Shown in pieces: positions 4,534 through 64,000 of a DNA stretch of 64,000 bases. The stretch lies in IMG/VR virus record IMGVR_UViG_3300027816_000055; one strand, written 5' to 3'. The position numbers and the translations under genes were made by a program. A model generated the notes under the pieces. That model saw only the letters and a program-made list of their open reading frames with translations. It made no database searches and was not told where the DNA came from. This stretch comes from a virus. How positions within the stretch are numbered: the stretch's first letter is position 1; every line of letters begins with the position of its first letter.

Positions 4534-5138
4534 TAAATTATAATTTAGTAAAAGGTATAGAAGGGTGGTGTAGCACTGAAAAAATGACAAAAATGACAAG
4601 TCTTATATTAGCTACCAAACCACAACGTGTAGTAGAAATAGGTGTTTTTTATGGAAAATCTTTAATATGTCAAGCATTGGCAATGAAGAAAAACAAAATC
4701 GGAAAAATATATGGAATTGATTCATGGAATCCAATAGATTGCTTAATGCATATGACAAATGAAAATGACATTAAATGGTGGAGTTCATTAAACTATGACA
4801 TGATTTATGATCAATGTATAACGAATATAAGAGAATCTGAAACAGAACATTTCGTACATATTTTAAAAGATAATTCGATGAATGTCGCTAATAATATAAA
4901 TTTTCCTATAGACATCCTTCATATTGATGGAAATCACGAAGCATTATCAGCGTGTCAAAACGTTTCATTATATGTACCAAAAATAAAATCTGGTGGATTT
5001 TTATGGTTTAATGACGCCGATTGGGAACAAAGTAAAAAAGCAATCGAATTAATAGAACAAAACTTTAAATTACAATTAATTGATAAAGCCAAATCGGATG
5101 ATATTAATAATCATTGTAACCTATATATTAAATTATAA
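4530..5138 (+). CDS. Class I SAM methyltransferase (Methyltransf_24-like)
   Basis: VVEIGVFYGKS, IDILHIDGNH, GGFLWFND. Confidence 0.85.
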   Translation: MINYNLVKGIEGWCSTEKMTKMTSLILATKPQRVVEIGVFYGKSLICQALAMKKNKIGKIYGIDSWNPIDCLMHMTNENDIKWWSSLNYDMIYDQCITNIRESETEHFVHILKDNSMNVANNINFPIDILHIDGNHEALSACQNVSLYVPKIKSGGFLWFNDADWEQSKKAIELIEQNFKLQLIDKAKSDDINNHCNLYIKL

Positions 5139-46615: not shown

Positions 46616-47140
46616 TTATTCGTCAATATTTTTTACTCTGTATTTGTCTTTCTTTGTGGGATGTAGTGCCACAGAATCATAATAAAAATATTGTGTCTGT
46701 TCAAAAGTTGCATTATAGACTTTTATTCCGCCAACAGGAAAATGTGGTTTACCTGCATCAATATATTCCATGAAATATATTTTATAAAACAATGGATATT
46801 TGGCAACAACTACACGGCTTCCAATGTCAGTGTCTTTTGTAATGCGTCTTTCAATAGGAATATGATTATAGATTTCAAATTCAATACTTGAATGCCGAAA
46901 GGTTTTTGAAACAACTTTTAAATCTGAAATAGATTCGTCTGATTCCGCTTCGTCTATCTTTTTTGATTTCGCATCCGATTTAACAGTCTGTTTAATCTCT
47001 TTTTTCGGCTTTATTGGTGTTTCTACTTTTTTAGATTCTACTTTTTTAGGAGTAGAAGGGGCGACTTTTTTTACATCATTACCCTTTAACTTTTTAGTAA
47101 TAATGTCTTTAAAGTCGCCCTTTTTCTTTGGTCGAGCCAT
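46616..47140 (-). CDS. Hypothetical protein with a Lys-rich N-terminus
   Basis: 174-aa ORF. Confidence 0.6.
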   Translation of the reverse strand: MARPKKKGDFKDIITKKLKGNDVKKVAPSTPKKVESKKVETPIKPKKEIKQTVKSDAKSKKIDEAESDESISDLKVVSKTFRHSSIEFEIYNHIPIERRITKDTDIGSRVVVAKYPLFYKIYFMEYIDAGKPHFPVGGIKVYNATFEQTQYFYYDSVALHPTKKDKYRVKNIDE

Positions 47141-47145
47141 AAGTG

Positions 47146-48153
47146 TTACTTCAACACTAACAATTTGGTGCCCTTAATCAACTTACGATTGGTGCTAGTG
47201 CTTTGAACGAAAATATCAAATGCACTATGAGAAGCAGGATTAACTTTTACTTCCTGATTAGGTAATGCCAACATTGCTCGGGCATTTACACCACTGTATA
47301 CTTTGCCGTTCATTTTGTCTTGAATGCAAACTTGCTTATAGCTTTGAATCTTCTCAGGTTTGGTTAGCTGATAATATGAAGAACCATTTACATATGCCGA
47401 TTTAGTCCAGCTTTCAACAAATGGTTTGATTACGCTGTCCGATTGAATTGGAAGCAATAAATAATCGGTAGCAGGCAACTGTGTAAGATTAGTTGCAACC
47501 GCTGCGGTTGTCAACTTCGTTACATCCAAATCAAATAGATTTTTAGTGCTACGAATTCCTTTGGCGCGAGCAGCCATGAAATTATCAGTTGCTGCTTTGA
47601 TAGTTTCACCTGCTTTTTCAACACCGCCAACAGTCGCATTCCATACTTGGATGTTATTTGTTGGAAATCCAAATTTCTTGGCTTCATGAACACCTGTTTG
47701 ATTTGGAACCAACACGGCAACAGTCCAATTATCAGGTAGGGTTTTGAGTTTTGTAGCCAAATGTTCAGGCGTGTTTCGGCTATTGTTTTCTTCTCCGTCT
47801 GTCAGAACATAAGACAAAAACGCATGGTCGCCATACTTTTGTGGAGTCAATGCAAGATCATCCAATGCAGTTACGGTTCCATCAATTAATGATGTATTTC
47901 CACCAGTGCGATAGTAATCTTTTAATGATGGCAGACGTAGTACGTCTTTATCGTAAATTAAACAGCTAACACTGCTATTAAAAAGATAAACAGTGACGCG
48001 AGTTTCTTGATCCAATTCCTTGCTACGTAGAGCAAGGTGCTTAATCTGCGCGTCGAAAACTTTTACAACTTCGTTTGAAAGATGGCCCATTGACCCTGAA
48101 GAATCTACGACGAACACAATGTGATTAATATAATTTTGTAAATTTTTATTCAT
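47146..48153 (-). CDS. vWA-domain protein
   Basis: IVFVVDSSGSM MIDAS, GGNTSLIDG, VLTDGEEN. Confidence 0.9.
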   Translation of the reverse strand: MNKNLQNYINHIVFVVDSSGSMGHLSNEVVKVFDAQIKHLALRSKELDQETRVTVYLFNSSVSCLIYDKDVLRLPSLKDYYRTGGNTSLIDGTVTALDDLALTPQKYGDHAFLSYVLTDGEENNSRNTPEHLATKLKTLPDNWTVAVLVPNQTGVHEAKKFGFPTNNIQVWNATVGGVEKAGETIKAATDNFMAARAKGIRSTKNLFDLDVTKLTTAAVATNLTQLPATDYLLLPIQSDSVIKPFVESWTKSAYVNGSSYYQLTKPEKIQSYKQVCIQDKMNGKVYSGVNARAMLALPNQEVKVNPASHSAFDIFVQSTSTNRKLIKGTKLLVLK

Positions 48154-52920: not shown

Positions 52921-53010
52921 TGGAGGAAAGAGAGGGATTCGAACCCCCGGAGGCTTTTAGACCCCTACGGTTTTCAAGACCATCGCCTTAAACCACTCAG
53001 CCATCTTTCC
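52921..53010 (-). tRNA. trnS: tRNA-Ser(TGA), canonical
   Basis: ATGGT-CTTGAAA-ACCGT, long V arm, CCA. Confidence 0.95.
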
Positions 53011-53763: not shown

Positions 53764-54147
53764 TGGTGGACGTGGAGGAAGTTGAATCCTCGTCTTTAAC
53801 ATTTTACCCATACCAGACTACATGTTTATTCATTTTGAATTTATTCGTGGCAATTCTAATAAATGAAAAACAAAATTGCCCTTAAGATTGCTCAATGTTC
53901 AACAATACAACACAATCCGATTATATCGTTTACTCTGATAAATGGCGTTTACATCAGTATCAGATATTCTGATATAAACGGGCTACCAGTAAATTAGGCA
54001 GCAACAGCGACTTCATCATAGTTGAAGTCATATGCAATTACATTGTCTTCTGCATTTAGGTTTTTAATGGATTTTTTTAGGAAGCCAACCATCATCTTCC
54101 ACATGCCTAGCATGACTAGTATATTAAATCGAAACCAGTACACGCCC
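53764..54147 (-). ncRNA. ssrA: tmRNA; tag reading frame 54053-53994 (AEDNVIAYDFNYDEVAVAA)
   Basis: GGGCGTG/CACGTCC acceptor with G3.U70, ACCA end, T-arm GAGG-ATTCAACTT-CCTC, tag ending in AA-TAA. Confidence 0.93.
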
Positions 54148-55265: not shown

Positions 55266-55535
55266 GACACTCGCCGTAGCCGATGTTCTGTTCTATTCCT
55301 ACATTTATCTCAATATTTCTATTGGCAATCTGTTAAAGATTGCTGCTCCAACCTTGTCCTGATAACGTGCAGCACTACACTCGGACACTTTAGGATTACT
55401 GCTAATTTGTGGTATTAACGTGCGGTATGTCGTCGTATAACGCTTGAGCGCATCAAACGAAAGCACTCCCAATCATCTGCTGTGCAGCATCGAACTTCCT
55501 CTAAGATATAATCTCAGCGTAGGATCGCTTGTGTC
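55266..55535 (-). ncRNA. rnpB: Compact RNase P RNA
   Basis: CR-I GAGGAAGTTCGATG pairs with CR-V AACAGAACATCGGCT (P4 with bulged U). P1 GACAC/GTGTC; P2 ATCCTAC/GTAGGAAT; P3 CTGAGAT/ATCTTAG; CR-IV-like CCAATAG. Confidence 0.85.
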
Positions 55536-56010: not shown

Positions 56011-56096
56011 TGGTGCCAGCGATTGGATTTGAACCAATGATTCCATTGTTTGGATTGCTGTTAATACCTTTATGATCTAGATATATTTCACTGGCA
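56011..56096 (-). ncRNA. tRNA-like RNA with acceptor stem, T arm and CCA but no recognisable D or anticodon arm
   Basis: TGCCAGT/GCTGGCA, ATTGG-TTCAAAT-CCAAT, internal ACAGCAA. Confidence 0.6.
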
Positions 56097-56587: not shown

Positions 56588-56677
56588 TGGCGGAAGTTGA
56601 GGGAATTGCACCCCCACCGGTTTTACCCGGCACTGTTTAGCAAACAGTTCTGACAACCTAATATTCAGCTAACTTCC
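56588..56677 (-). tRNA. trnS: Non-canonical tRNA-Ser(GCT)
   Basis: ACTGT-TTGCTAA-ACAGT; A8; T loop TGCAATT; CCA. Confidence 0.85.
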
Positions 56678-56760: not shown

Positions 56761-56770
56761 ATTTTAAAAT

Positions 56771-56856
56771 TGGTAGGTGTGGTAGGATTCGAACCTACAA
56801 GGACTTCTCGTTTTAAGCAAGATGTTTCTTCCAATTTCACTTTCGTCCACACACCC
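56771..56856 (-). tRNA. trnL: tRNA-Leu(TAA), atypical (short V region, long 8-9 linker)
   Basis: TCTTG-CTTAAAA-CGAGA; GGGTGTG/CACACCT-A-CCA. Confidence 0.85.
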
Positions 56857-56870
56857 ATTATTAAATTAAC

Positions 56871-56922
56871 AAGATACATTTGTTTATTTTTGCTAAATAA
56901 TTTTTGTTGCTGTATGTATCTT
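56871..56922 (-). repeat. Stem+ACAGCAA element copy A
   Basis: AAGATACAT-ACAGCAA...ATGTATCTT; flank identical to copy B. Confidence 0.75.
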
Positions 56923-58157: not shown

Positions 58158-58171
58158 ATTATTAAATTAAC

Positions 58172-58279
58172 AAGATACAACAATTTACAGTTTTGCTTCT
58201 GACCTGCATTTTTTTCATGGTCCGCAGACAAGACGATTCATTTCCTATGATAATTTATATTTGTTGCTGTGTGTATCTT
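58172..58279 (-). repeat. Stem+ACAGCAA element copy B
   Basis: AAGATACA-C-ACAGCAA...TGTATCTT. Confidence 0.75.
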
Positions 58280-58288
58280 AAAAATTAC

Positions 58289-58404
58289 GAGATGTGTTTT
58301 TATAATTTGAGTTTCAAGCTCAATGCCTTACCATTAGGCGAATTTTCCACACGGAAAATATTGGATTTGAACCAATAATTTATTTGTATTGCTGCGCACA
58401 TCTC
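58289..58404 (-). ncRNA. Circularly permuted tRNA-Ser(TGA)
   Basis: Order is T arm, closed 7-bp acceptor, D arm, anticodon arm, all inside a GAGATGTG/CACATCTC helix. Confidence 0.75.
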
Positions 58405-58496: not shown

Positions 58497-58572
58497 TGGT
58501 CGGGATGGAGAATTTTGCAATCTCAACCTCCTGTCTCCAAAACAGGCCGTCTACTTTTGACATTACATCCCG
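58497..58572 (-). tRNA. trnP: Non-canonical tRNA-Pro(TGG)
   Basis: CCTGT-TTTGGAG-ACAGG; T loop TGCAAAA; D loop AAAAGTA. Confidence 0.85.
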
Positions 58573-58808: not shown

Positions 58809-58927
58809 ATCTTAGCACTGATTTCATCGTTGTCAACAGCTTTGTTGAGTTTTTTGTTTCTTACGTTTCGCTCAACCTCGCAGTCTCAACTGTGGATACA
58901 TCTTACACCATCCGATCCAAACGTCAA
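58809..58927 (-). promoter_or_regulatory. Tandem sigma70-like promoters heading the tRNA cluster
   Basis: TTGACG-N16-TAAGAT (58927-58900) and TTGACA-N16-TAAGAT (58836-58809). Confidence 0.6.
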
Positions 58928-63945: not shown

Positions 63946-64000
63946 TGGAGCACCGTGTTGGATTTGAACCAACGATTTTAGAGTTTTGCAGACTCTTGCC
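63946..64000 (-). tRNA. trnC: tRNA-Cys(GCA), 5' end outside the window
   Basis: AGAGT-CTGCAAA-ACTCT; T arm; CCA. Confidence 0.9.

What the first reader, a model, noticed from the sequence alone, without database searches (positions are those of the whole stretch)
58289..58404. Circularly permuted tRNA-Ser(UGA) gene in a phage
Seen, minus strand: GAGATGTG-C-GCAGCAA-TACAAATAAATT | ATTGG-TTCAAAT-CCAAT (T arm) | ATTTTCC-G-TGT-GGAAAAT (7-bp acceptor closed by a loop; G73, G1-C72, G2-C71, A3-U70) | TC | GCCT-AATGGTA-AGGC (D arm with GG) | A | TTGAG-CTTGAAA-CTCAA (anticodon UGA) | ATTATAAAAA-CACATCTC. All four tRNA arms are present, in the order T, acceptor, D, anticodon. The 8-bp closing helix sits where the long variable arm of tRNA-Ser would be, and the acceptor identity elements agree with the Ser anticodon. 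Known: permuted tRNA genes are described in Cyanidioschyzon merolae, some other algae and Thermofilum, and two-piece tmRNAs are permuted bacterial genes. I do not know of a phage permuted tRNA. Inference: a cut before G1, possibly by the phage RNase P, then trimming and CCA addition would give a two-piece tRNA without ligation. Left uncut, it would be an unchargeable decoy for anticodon nucleases or synthetases.
Basis: partly seen in the sequence, partly recalled or inferred. Interest (0 to 1): 0.92.

Follow-up and report, generated by a model that had tools for sequence, protein, structure and literature searches.

The report
Phage Y-RNA-like permuted tRNA mimic
The element is a real, conserved small RNA gene shaped like a tRNA with a sealed acceptor end and its ends in the variable arm. 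It is most likely a Y-RNA-type tRNA mimic of a widespread phage family usually encoded beside Ro60-like ring proteins, not a serine tRNA gene.

Summary
Window 58404-58289 (minus strand) folds into an 8-bp closing helix, T arm, loop-closed 7-bp acceptor hairpin, D arm and a 5-bp/7-nt anticodon-like hairpin. Six homologues in other phage contigs fold the same way, with 200 of 203 stem positions paired and compensatory changes in four of the five helices.

The tRNA-Ser(UGA) reading is not supported:
- The "anticodon" differs in every homologue (TGA, AAA, TCA, TTT, GAT, CAT, TAA).
- Other family members lack that hairpin.
- No acceptor loop encodes CCA, while all 14 true tRNAs of the array do.
- The D arm is unlike the phage's own tRNA-Ser(UGA).

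The closing helix followed by CAGCAA is a shared "handle". It occurs on three RNAs in this tRNA array and in many phages.
- In 6 of 7 searched contigs it lies on the same strand as a DUF2828 gene, whose model matches Ro60 best.
- Two relatives without the CAGCAA motif lie beside TROVE/Ro60 genes.
- The same design follows the DUF2828 gene in a Felixounavirus and a mycobacteriophage.

The closest known thing is YrlA, the bacterial and phage Y RNA described as a circularly permuted tRNA. No Ro60-like gene was found in this 64-kb window. The scan noted this RNA family before on other phage DNA; I found no paper or Rfam model for the CAGCAA type.

The parts
58397..58404 (-). Closing (basal) helix, 5' strand GAGATGTG
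   Evidence: Pairs with 58296-58289 in the MFE fold. It belongs to a repeated post-tRNA spacer with three copies in the array (family D7).
58389..58394 (-). CAGCAA motif, 2 nt after the helix strand: the single-stranded part of the 'handle'
   Evidence: The same helix-N1-4-CAGCAA layout (CAGCAT in one copy) occurs in L004, L110, L124 (two copies), L130, L170, L197, L223, L095 and the L001/L002/L003 paralogue. It also occurs beside DUF2828 genes in phages fjerdesal and DuncansLeg. L002's orthologue has CCGCAA.
58377..58388 (-). Unpaired 5' linker TACAAATAAATT
   Evidence: Length and sequence vary among homologues, from 6 to 21 nt between helix and T arm.
58360..58376 (-). T arm ATTGG-TTCAAAT-CCAAT
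   Evidence: MFE fold. The stem covaries at 4 of 5 pairs in seven homologues.
58342..58359 (-). Acceptor hairpin ATTTTCC-GTGT-GGAAAAT: 7 bp closed by a 4-nt loop, no CCA
   Evidence: Loops in homologues are 3-6 nt, including a GCAA tetraloop, and none has CCA. Pairs 4-6 covary or wobble.
58325..58341 (-). TC linker (positions 8-9) and D arm GCCT-AATGGTA-AGGC
   Evidence: The D arm is identical in six of seven homologues. L027 has a compensated T-A to A-T change.
58307..58324 (-). A26 plus anticodon-like hairpin TTGAG-CTTGAAA-CTCAA
   Evidence: Every stem position shows three or more pair types across homologues. The loop triplet differs in every one. Many family members lack this hairpin.
58297..58306 (-). 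Unpaired A-rich 3' linker ATTATAAAAA
58289..58296 (-). Closing helix, 3' strand CACATCTC
   Evidence: L002 has CGCATCTC, which gives a U-G wobble that is valid only on this strand.
58171..58280 (-). Sister handle RNA ('module B'): TAAGATACA-CA-CAGCAA, a cargo of about 84 nt, then TGTATCTTG
   Evidence: Its helix differs from the element's at four positions, all compensated. The cargo is conserved in L001, L002 and L003.
56871..56922 (-). Third, short handle RNA: AAGATACAT-A-CAGCAA, a 27-nt loop, then ATGTATCTT
   Evidence: z = -2.35.
58809..58927 (-). Two sigma-70-like promoters upstream of the Val-Pro-element-module B-Leu unit
   Evidence: Consensus scan: TTGACA-16-TAAGAT with TG, and TTGACG-16-TAAGAT. 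A strong terminator lies just upstream at 58974-58945. There is no expression data.

Best explanation
The element is a noncoding RNA of the Y-RNA kind (YrlA-like) with two modules.

Module 1 is a 'handle': the 8-bp helix that joins the two ends, plus the adjacent unpaired CAGCAA motif. The handle is shared with two sister RNAs in the same tRNA array.

Module 2 is the 'cargo': a circularly permuted, acceptor-sealed tRNA mimic. Here the mimic is unusually complete because it keeps an anticodon-like stem-loop.

Proposed working:
- The RNA is transcribed within the polycistronic tRNA transcript.
- It is set free when the flanking tRNA-Pro and tRNA-Leu are processed.
- The handle is bound by a Ro60-like ring protein, of the DUF2828 type in related phages.
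- The tRNA-shaped cargo presents a tRNA elbow and anticodon loop to a tRNA-recognising host factor, such as a nuclease, a modification enzyme or a defence effector. The factor is thereby tethered, redirected or blocked.

Shown here: the structure, its covariation, the family, the genomic linkage to Ro60-like genes in other phages, and the Ro60-like fold of DUF2828.

Inferred: transcription and processing, protein binding, the host target, and whether this phage has such a protein at all.
For: Structure and covariation. The MFE fold gives the five-helix structure in the window and in the homologues. In seven homologues 200 of 203 stem positions pair. Compensatory changes occur in the T, acceptor and anticodon-like stems, plus one in the D stem. 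All seven outer helices differ in sequence yet are fully complementary.

Handle.
- Three handle modules lie in the array.
- The paralogous helices AAGATACA/TGTATCTT and GAGATGTG/CACATCTC differ by four compensated changes inside otherwise homologous spacers.
- 14 of 17 members with the motif have a helix of at least 7 bp ending 0-4 nt before CAGCAA, against 2.4 expected.

Linkage to DUF2828, always on the same strand (coordinates):
- L110: RNA about 110 nt upstream of the gene.
- L004: about 0.5 kb upstream.
- L124: adjacent, just downstream.
- L130: about 0.8 kb downstream.
- L223: 2.7 kb upstream.
- L170: 9.4 kb upstream.

Linkage to TROVE/Ro60. L066 and L027 have no CAGCAA motif. Their 5' linkers are TACTTC and TACATC. 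Their elements lie 279 and 187 nt downstream of TROVE/Ro60 ORFs on the same strand. L066 carries GGCGAACG, which fits the published YrlA motif GNCGAAN0-1G. It shares an identical 25-nt acceptor-plus-D-arm stretch with the window.

Protein fold. The DUF2828 model (pLDDT 68, pTM 0.63) has Ro60 structures as its top 11 full-length PDB matches. These include D. radiodurans Rsr at E = 2.7e-8 and Thermus phage phiLo Ro60 at TM 0.55-0.57.

Cultured phages. The same arrangement follows the DUF2828 gene in Escherichia phage fjerdesal (four handle RNAs; the one at L242 6362-6487 has permuted tRNA cargo). It also follows the gene in Mycobacterium phage DuncansLeg (three handle RNAs; L243 4044-4176 has permuted tRNA cargo). 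The Rfam YrlA model hits the DuncansLeg cargo below threshold, at 27 bits.

Literature.
- Phage Ro60 binds phage-encoded Y-like RNAs and host PNPase (PMC12135203).
- Bas63 gp130, described as structurally Ro60-like and lying directly upstream of the tRNA genes, counters the Ppl defence (10.1101/2024.10.10.617714).
Against: - No TROVE or DUF2828 gene was found in the 64-kb window. This rests on Pfam scans of 22 ORFs of 257-659 aa and on tblastn over all six frames. None was found in the three closest contigs either, which are only 15-31% complete.
- Two complete jumbo-phage contigs with no-CAGCAA relatives (L105, L199) have neither gene. The RNA can therefore exist without a phage-encoded partner.
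- The window's handle motif (CAGCAA) is not the published YrlA motif. Rfam's YrlA model does not hit the element.
- The anticodon-like loops look like genuine anticodon loops: U33 in six of seven and A37 in six of seven. The Y-RNA model does not require this.
- There are no expression, processing or binding data for this phage.
Confidence: 0.72

Rival explanations
1. Protein-independent decoy. The sealed tRNA mimic acts alone as bait or sponge for a tRNA-directed host enzyme, such as an anticodon nuclease, another tRNA-cleaving defence effector, or a modification enzyme or synthetase. The handle only stabilises the ends.
For: - The anticodon-like hairpin has a canonical 5-bp stem and 7-nt loop with U33 and A37. 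The loop letters differ between phages (CTTGAAA, CTGATAA, CTTTTAC and others), as if tracking different target tRNAs.
- No Ro60-like gene lies in the window or in its close relatives' fragments.
- Complete contigs L105 and L199 carry relatives with neither TROVE nor DUF2828.
Against: - The handle motif CAGCAA is conserved in sequence across very different phages. It is shared with sister RNAs that carry no tRNA-like cargo. That points to a handle-binding partner.
- Strong same-strand linkage to Ro60-like genes elsewhere.
- Most family members have no anticodon hairpin at all.
Confidence: 0.15
2. RNase P cuts before G1, perhaps the RNase P-like RNA at 55535-55266. The 3' strand is then trimmed and CCA is added. 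The result is a two-piece tRNA held together by the acceptor stem, the tertiary core and the 8-bp helix. It can be charged and can decode.
For: - A 7-bp acceptor stem with G1-C72 and G73.
- Re-permuted versions with a shortened variable region are accepted by ARAGORN as tRNAs.
- M. smegmatis YrlA, also with a 7-bp stem, is cut by RNase P and receives CCA in vivo (PMC4201824).
- CR-I-like AGAGGAAGTTCG and CR-V-like ACAGAACATCGGCTAC can be read at 55535-55266.
- Most anticodon-like loops have U33 and A37.
Against: - The anticodon changes between close orthologues: TGA against AAA with C37 in L002, and TCA against TTT in L004 and L110.
- The hairpin is dispensable in paralogues and in most relatives.
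- No CCA lies in any acceptor loop, while 14 of 14 array tRNAs encode CCA.
- Relatives seal the stem with 3-nt or GCAA loops.
- The discriminator and pair 3-70 vary.
- 10 and 20 unpaired bases flank the would-be variable arm, and the full construct is not tRNA-like to ARAGORN.
- A canonical tRNA-Ser(UGA) already exists at 52921-53010, with a different D arm and a proper variable arm.
Confidence: 0.07
3. Inert relic: the junction left by decay of two tandem tRNA genes (3' part of one, 5' part of the next), with no function.
For: - Tandem tRNA duplicates with 9-10 nt spacers exist in the array.
- YrlA itself is proposed to have arisen from dimeric tRNAs (10.1101/312249).
- The element is absent from two close relatives, L001 and L003.
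Against: - The same five-helix layout is kept in distant contigs, with compensatory changes in four of the five helices.
- The closing helix sits at a fixed place next to a conserved motif.
- Repeated linkage to Ro60-like genes.
Confidence: 0.03

Closest known systems
YrlA (Y RNA-like A; Rfam RF02553), the tRNA-like Y RNA bound by bacterial and mycobacteriophage Ro60/Rsr (Chen et al. 2014, PMC4201824; structure in Wang et al. 2018, 10.1101/312249)
   Same: - A basal stem joins the 5' and 3' ends.
- The order is T arm, loop-closed acceptor stem, two-base linker, D arm, with tRNA-like T and D loops.
- YrlA is described in print as a circularly permuted tRNA.
- It is encoded on the same strand as, and close to, a Ro60 gene, often with a smaller sister RNA (YrlB).
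- The 7-bp-stem version of M. smegmatis is cut by RNase P and receives CCA.
- The no-CAGCAA relatives L066 and L027 lie beside TROVE genes. L066 carries GGCGAACG, which fits the YrlA motif.
   Different: - The window's handle motif is CAGCAA, not GNCGAAN0-1G.
- The Rfam model does not hit the element.
- The partner in related phages is DUF2828 rather than TROVE.
- A complete anticodon-like stem-loop follows the D arm. The RNA is therefore opened at the variable-arm position, not at the anticodon loop.
- No Ro60-like gene was found within the 64-kb window.
Thermus phage phiLo Ro60 with its Y-like RNAs Yrl1 and Yrl2 (PMC12135203), and Bas63 gp130 (10.1101/2024.10.10.617714)
   Same: - Phage-encoded Ro60-type ring protein with phage-encoded partner RNAs next to the gene.
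- Proposed hijacking of a host RNA enzyme (PNPase), or countering of a defence system (Ppl).
- Bas63 gp130 sits directly upstream of the tRNA array. Its authors suggest that some 'tRNA genes' there may be Y RNAs.
   Different: - Yrl1 and Yrl2 were identified by a CGAA motif. In the passages I read they are not described as tRNA mimics.
- No RNA was defined for Bas63.
- Neither paper describes the helix+CAGCAA handle or a permuted tRNA cargo.
Class I RNAs of dictyostelid amoebae (PMC7919456)
   Same: A short stem joins the 5' and 3' ends, a conserved single-stranded motif lies directly after the 5' strand, and the rest is variable. The architecture is confirmed from the paper.
   Different: - Those RNAs are eukaryotic, 42-65 nt long, and have no tRNA-like cargo.
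- That their 11-nt motif ends in ACAGCAA is my recollection and an earlier scan note. I could not confirm the letters in the paper's text.
- Homology is untested.
Circularly permuted tRNA genes of Cyanidioschyzon merolae and other algae and of Thermofilum (from general knowledge)
   Same: The 3' half of a tRNA is encoded upstream of the 5' half, with a short sequence between the acceptor strands.
   Different: - Those are true tRNAs. They mature through a circular intermediate made by the bulge-helix-bulge splicing endonuclease and a ligase.
- Here the closing helix is a plain 8-bp helix without that motif.
- The setting is bacterial phage.
- The anticodon is not conserved.
Two-piece (permuted) tmRNA (Rfam RF04321)
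   Same: A permuted gene order with T arm and acceptor 3' strand before the acceptor 5' strand. It is processed into two base-paired pieces. One is present in the L027 contig.
   Different: - tmRNA encodes CCA, carries a tag reading frame and pseudoknots, and has no D stem or anticodon arm.
- The window already has a one-piece tmRNA at 53764-54147.

Membership tests
YrlA / bacterial Y RNA (RF02553) | tRNA-like domain in the order T arm, loop-closed acceptor stem, D arm, enclosed by a stem that joins the RNA ends | tested here: met
YrlA / bacterial Y RNA (RF02553) | GNCGAAN0-1G motif near the 5' end (the presumed Ro60 contact) | tested here: not met
   The window has CG-CAGCAA after the helix strand and no CGAA. 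The relative L066 does have GGCGAACG.
YrlA / bacterial Y RNA (RF02553) | Encoded within about 4 kb of a TROVE/Ro60 gene, on the same strand | tested here: not met
   No TROVE gene in the window. The feature is met for relatives L066 and L027.
YrlA / bacterial Y RNA (RF02553) | Match to the Rfam covariance model at the gathering score (69 bits) | tested here: not met
   No YrlA hit at E <= 10 on the element. Related loci give only sub-threshold hits of 28 bits or less, and 13 of 14 control genomes also give sub-threshold hits.
YrlA / bacterial Y RNA (RF02553) | Bound by Ro60/Rsr | not testable with these tools
   Needs RIP or EMSA.
Helix+CAGCAA handle RNAs beside phage DUF2828 (Ro60-like) genes (no published or Rfam description found) | Terminal helix of 7 bp or more, whose 5' strand is followed after 1-4 nt by CAGCAA, with a variable cargo inside | tested here: met
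Helix+CAGCAA handle RNAs beside phage DUF2828 (Ro60-like) genes (no published or Rfam description found) | DUF2828 gene on the same strand nearby | tested here: not met
   None in the window or in the fragments L001-L003. Met in 6 of 7 other contigs searched and in two cultured phages. The rest of this phage's genome was not available.
Decoding tRNA (tRNA-Ser UGA) | Free acceptor end with 3' CCA, which is encoded in this phage's tRNAs | tested here: not met
   The acceptor is closed by GTGT. 14 of 14 array tRNAs encode CCA.
Decoding tRNA (tRNA-Ser UGA) | Anticodon and identity elements conserved among orthologues | tested here: not met
   Seven homologues have seven different triplets. Position 73 is G or A and pair 3-70 is A-U or G-U. 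The D arm is unlike the phage's own tRNA-Ser.
Decoding tRNA (tRNA-Ser UGA) | Recognised as a tRNA after re-permutation | tested here: inconclusive
   ARAGORN says yes with a shortened variable region and no with the natural 46-nt region.
Permuted tRNA genes of the C. merolae type | Bulge-helix-bulge motif at the joined termini for splicing-endonuclease processing | tested here: not met
   The closing helix is an uninterrupted 8-bp helix flanked by 20- and 10-nt single strands.

The most novel reading that the evidence does not exclude
In this phage the mimic may be opened on purpose. The phage's own slimmed RNase P-like RNA, or the host enzyme, would cut the sealed 7-bp acceptor stem before G1. 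The 3' strand would receive CCA. The result would be a two-piece, chargeable, complete tRNA (anticodon arm included) still attached to a Ro60-type handle. This would be an aminoacyl-tRNA-like molecule that could be delivered to, or withheld from, synthetases, EF-Tu, the ribosome or a tRNA-sensing defence system.
Probability: 0.07. Interest if true: 0.9.

Novelty: new variant of a known kind. Interest (0 to 1): 0.6.

Why it matters
Y RNAs and Ro60 are a long-studied but poorly understood RNA-surveillance pair. What the tRNA-like module of bacterial YrlA binds is still unknown.

This element belongs to a large phage family of handle RNAs (helix plus CAGCAA). The family has no Rfam model and no paper that I could find. 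It sits beside DUF2828 proteins, whose predicted fold is Ro60-like. DUF2828 homologues occur in 710 cultured phage records, including Felixounavirus, Listeria, Staphylococcus and Mycobacterium phages. A Bas63 protein described as structurally Ro60-like counters a defence system (10.1101/2024.10.10.617714).

The window's version is the most tRNA-complete form seen here. It keeps a canonical anticodon-like loop that changes from phage to phage. This gives a concrete, testable lead on which tRNA-recognising factor such particles engage. It also warns annotators that 'odd tRNAs' in phage arrays may be Y-like RNAs.

Tried and rejected
- ARAGORN on the re-permuted element with its full variable region, with or without a capping loop: no gene.
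- Exact search for the T-loop/acceptor junction in IMG/VR: no hit. The 24-nt T-arm/acceptor pattern found only L004 and L002's contig in IMG/VR. In the metagenome collection it found one ordinary tRNA-like gene with the same acceptor and T arm (L090) and L004's contig again.
- The acceptor-hairpin pattern gave 86 IMG/VR loci, almost all chance matches in coding DNA.
- An un-anchored search for a closing helix is not significant in AT-rich flanks. I replaced it with the motif-anchored test.
- MAFFT alignments A1 and A3 misplace the outer and anticodon-stem strands. I therefore counted pairs on segments read from the folds and verified them against the sequences. No covariance model was built.
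- Rfam at gathering score and at E <= 10: nothing but partial tRNA matches.
- Search for TROVE or DUF2828 in the window: none. The only lead is a vWA-only protein at 47146-48153, which aligns weakly with the vWA part of both proteins. PHROGs on array ORFs gave nothing relevant.
- phmmer of a DUF2828 protein against PDB sequences: no hit. The fold search was needed.
- A literature search for 'DUF2828' gave nothing relevant.
- The letters of the Dictyostelium Class I motif could not be confirmed from the paper's text.
- Rfam does not detect the RNase P-like RNA at 55535-55266.
- The window's whole genome is not held, so the rest of the phage could not be searched.
Full report
**1. What is in the sequence**

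In order it contains:
- GAGATGTG, then CG-CAGCAA and a 12-nt linker.
- A T arm, ATTGG-TTCAAAT-CCAAT.
- A 7-bp acceptor hairpin closed by GTGT.
- TC, then a D arm, GCCT-AATGGTA-AGGC.
- A, then a 5-bp/7-nt hairpin with loop CTTGAAA.
- A 10-nt A-rich linker, then CACATCTC.

RNAfold returns exactly this five-helix structure: -27.4 kcal/mol, z = -3.3, 1 of 200 shuffles as good. The fold does not change with 11 extra upstream bases.

ARAGORN finds 14 tRNAs and a tmRNA in the window but not this element. The Rfam tRNA model scores the 5' half at 32 bits and the 3' half at 14 bits, as separate hits.

Sigma-70-like promoters lie at 58927-58900 and 58836-58809, just after a strong terminator. This suggests one transcript running through tRNA-Val, a tRNA-Pro-like gene, tRNA-Pro, the element, a sister RNA and tRNA-Leu. 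The element starts 6 nt after the CCA of tRNA-Pro.

**2. The closing helix belongs to a repeated handle**

The helix strand and the bases after it form a repeated post-tRNA spacer with three copies (family D7). The three modules are 58404-58289, 58280-58171 and 56922-56871. Each has a helix strand, 1-2 bases, CAGCAA, a variable inside and the complementary strand.

Between paralogues the helix changes from AAGATACA/TGTATCTT to GAGATGTG/CACATCTC. That is four changes, all compensated.

Taken alone, an 8-bp helix between such AT-rich flanks is not unusual: 51 of 200 shuffles. I therefore used an anchored test. Among 17 family members with the motif, 14 have a helix of at least 7 bp whose 5' strand ends 0-4 nt before CAGCAA, against 2.4 expected.

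**3. Homologues**

A neighbouring protein fetched three syntenic IMG/VR contigs.
- L002 has the orthologous element between tRNA-Pro and the sister RNA. Its differences from the window:
  - A U-G wobble in the closing helix, valid only on this strand.
  - A compensated T-A to C-G change in the anticodon-like stem.
  - G3-U70, A73 and the loop ACACC.
  - An anticodon loop CTAAACA, that is AAA with C37.
- L001 and L003 lack the element.

Pattern scans and a structural scan found the same architecture in unrelated large-phage contigs. These are L004, L110, L098, L066 and L027/L084 with the anticodon-like hairpin, and L001/L002/L003 (a paralogue), L095/L109, L105, L124, L130, L170, L197, L199 and L223 without it. 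Each homologue folds on its own into the same structure.

In the seven members with all five helices, 200 of 203 stem positions pair:
- The T stem varies with compensation at 4 of 5 pairs.
- The acceptor varies at 3 of 7 pairs.
- The D stem varies at 1 of 4 pairs.
- The anticodon-like stem shows three or more pair types at every position.
- All seven closing helices differ in sequence and are fully complementary.

The RNA structure is therefore under selection. The 'dead junction of two tandem tRNAs' reading is excluded.

**4. It is not a tRNA-Ser gene**

- The loop triplets are TGA, AAA, TCA, TTT, GAT, CAT and TAA, and they change even between close orthologues.
- Most family members have no such hairpin.
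- The acceptor loops (GTGT, ACACC, GCTCTA, ATAA, GCAA, GCGTT, ATG) never hold CCA, whereas 14 of 14 tRNAs of the array encode CCA.
- The phage's own tRNA-Ser(UGA) at 52921-53010 has the usual long D loop and a proper variable arm. It shares no arm with the element.
- Re-permuted constructs are accepted by ARAGORN only when the 46-nt variable region is shortened. They are then named Ser, Phe, SeC, Lys, Met or Leu according to the phage of origin.

The four arms are of tRNA grade. The molecule as encoded is not a tRNA.

**5. What it belongs to**

The layout is that of YrlA: basal stem, T arm, closed acceptor stem, two bases, D arm.
- YrlA is the bacterial and phage Y RNA bound by Ro60. Its discoverers modelled it as a tRNA mimic (PMC4201824).

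Two subtypes appear in my set.

*Members without the CAGCAA motif.*
- L066 and L027 have the 5' linkers TACTTC and TACATC. Their elements lie 279 and 187 nt downstream of TROVE/Ro60 ORFs on the same strand.
- L066 carries GGCGAACG, which fits the published GNCGAAN0-1G motif. It shares an identical 25-nt acceptor-plus-D-arm stretch with the window.

*CAGCAA subtype.* The window belongs here. Members lie on the same strand as DUF2828 (PF11443) ORFs in 6 of 7 contigs searched.
- The RNA is 110 nt, 0.5 kb, 2.7 kb and 9.4 kb upstream of the gene in L110, L004, L223 and L170.
- It is adjacent and about 0.8 kb downstream in L124 and L130.

A DUF2828 model built from six of these proteins has pLDDT 68 and pTM 0.63. 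Ro60 structures are its top 11 full-length PDB matches, including D. radiodurans Rsr and Thermus phage phiLo Ro60 (TM 0.55-0.57).

DUF2828 homologues occur in 710 cultured phage records. Some are annotated 'Ro-like RNA binding protein'.

In two cultured phages the gene is followed directly by handle RNAs:
- Escherichia phage fjerdesal (Felixounavirus) has four. One of them carries a permuted T-acceptor-D cargo (L242 6362-6487).
- Mycobacterium phage DuncansLeg has three. One of them carries such a cargo (L243 4044-4176).

Rfam's YrlA model (RF02553) hits the DuncansLeg cargo at 27 bits. That is below its 69-bit threshold, and similar weak hits occur in control genomes. No Rfam family other than tRNA touches the window's element.

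**6. How it most likely works**

By analogy with published Ro60 systems, I propose that the handle docks a Ro60-like ring protein. The sealed tRNA mimic would recruit or block a tRNA-recognising host factor.
- D. radiodurans has a Ro60-Y RNA-PNPase complex.
- Thermus phage phiLo Ro60 binds two phage Y-like RNAs and damps host PNPase (PMC12135203).
- Bas63 gp130 is described as structurally Ro60-like. It lies directly upstream of the tRNA genes and counters the Ppl defence. Its authors suggest that some 'tRNA genes' there may be Y RNAs (10.1101/2024.10.10.617714).

Release from the tRNA transcript by the enzymes that process the neighbouring tRNAs is inferred from position only.

*Weak points.*
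- No TROVE or DUF2828 gene lies in the 64-kb window or in the fragmentary close relatives.
- The genome is larger than the window, according to earlier scan notes, and is not held.
- Two complete jumbo-phage contigs with no-CAGCAA relatives have neither gene.
- The canonical look of the anticodon-like loops (U33 and A37 in six of seven each) is not explained by a plain Y-RNA model. It keeps a decoy-for-anticodon-readers variant alive.

**7.

A 7-bp acceptor stem is the feature that makes M. smegmatis YrlA an RNase P substrate followed by CCA addition in vivo (PMC4201824). An RNase P-like RNA with CR-I-like and CR-V-like strings can be read at 55535-55266, although Rfam misses it. Cleavage is therefore conceivable. 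A decoding role is unlikely, for the reasons given in section 4. I give it about 7%.

**8. Context and novelty**

- The phage is uncultured and AT-rich, about 31% G+C.
- Its nearest cultured relative for a 1071-aa protein is Microcystis phage Mel-JY01, at 36% identity.
- Earlier notes of this scan describe the same handle-plus-permuted-tRNA design in Felix O1-type phages and beside DUF2828 genes. I re-tested the handle, the linkage and the Ro60-like fold independently.
- YrlA and phage Ro60-Y RNA pairs are published. I found no publication or Rfam model for the CAGCAA handle family, its DUF2828 linkage, or a form with a complete anticodon arm opened at the variable-arm position.
- Verdict: a new variant of a known kind.

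Noticed in passing
window 58171-58280 (-): A sister handle RNA (TAAGATACA-CA-CAGCAA ... TGTATCTTG). Its cargo of about 84 nt is strongly conserved in L001, L002 and L003. The cargo contains a tiny frame (ATG AAT CGT CTT GTC TGC GGA CCA TGA). It is not tRNA-like and its fold z-score is only -1.0. It may be a YrlB-like partner RNA.
   Followed up: partly
window 56011-56096 (-): A CCA-ended tRNA shell. It has a Gln-like acceptor stem and the same T arm as the element (ATTGG-TTCAAAT-CCAAT). The D and anticodon arms are replaced by an AT-rich hairpin, ACAGCAA and a small hairpin. Fold z = -3.2.
   Followed up: partly
window 55266-55535 (-): A candidate slimmed RNase P RNA. AGAGGAAGTTCG (CR-I-like) and ACAGAACATCGGCTAC (CR-V-like) can be read, but Rfam gives no RNase P hit at E <= 1.
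   Followed up: partly
window 58497-58563 (-), 56588-56650 (-), 56770-56857 (-): tRNA-like genes with encoded CCA and anticodon loops for Pro(TGG), Ser(GCT) and Leu(TAA), but odd D or T arms. Neither ARAGORN nor the Rfam tRNA model calls them.
   Followed up: no
L001 3869-3923, L002 1952-2006, L003 2274-2328: A second, paralogous permuted tRNA-like RNA in the close relatives. It has a handle of the GAGATG type, CAGCAA, T arm GTGAG/CTCAC and acceptor TCGCGGC/GCCGCGA, but no anticodon hairpin. By synteny its counterpart would lie just beyond the window's end at 64000.
   Followed up: partly
L004 1476-1592 (+): A handle (GGTTTCA-CA-CAGCAA ... TGAAACC) that encloses a native-order tRNA-Lys(UUU)-like sequence, which ARAGORN calls a tRNA at 1508-1579. 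It lies directly upstream of L004's permuted element.
   Followed up: no
L027 101-374 (-), also L084: A circularly permuted (two-piece) tmRNA gene in a phage contig: Rfam tmRNA_permuted at 110 bits, flagged tmRNA* by ARAGORN. It lies a few kb from the TROVE gene and the permuted tRNA mimic.
   Followed up: no
G003 contig 4680-4742 (-) and G004 contig 46673-46780 (-): Sub-threshold RF02553 (YrlA) hits just upstream of the TROVE ORFs. Those genes may therefore be flanked by a canonical YrlA upstream and the permuted full-tRNA mimic downstream.
   Followed up: no
window 47146-48153 (-): A 335-aa protein with only a vWA domain (Pfam VWA, E = 2e-5; phrog_26613). It aligns weakly with the vWA parts of the TROVE and DUF2828 proteins. 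It has no HEAT-repeat ring part, so it is not a Ro60-like protein as it stands.
   Followed up: partly
L001 12400-13320 (+): In this relative, an ORF of about 300 codons sits between the Pro-like tRNA and the sister handle RNA, at the place where the window carries the permuted mimic.
   Followed up: no
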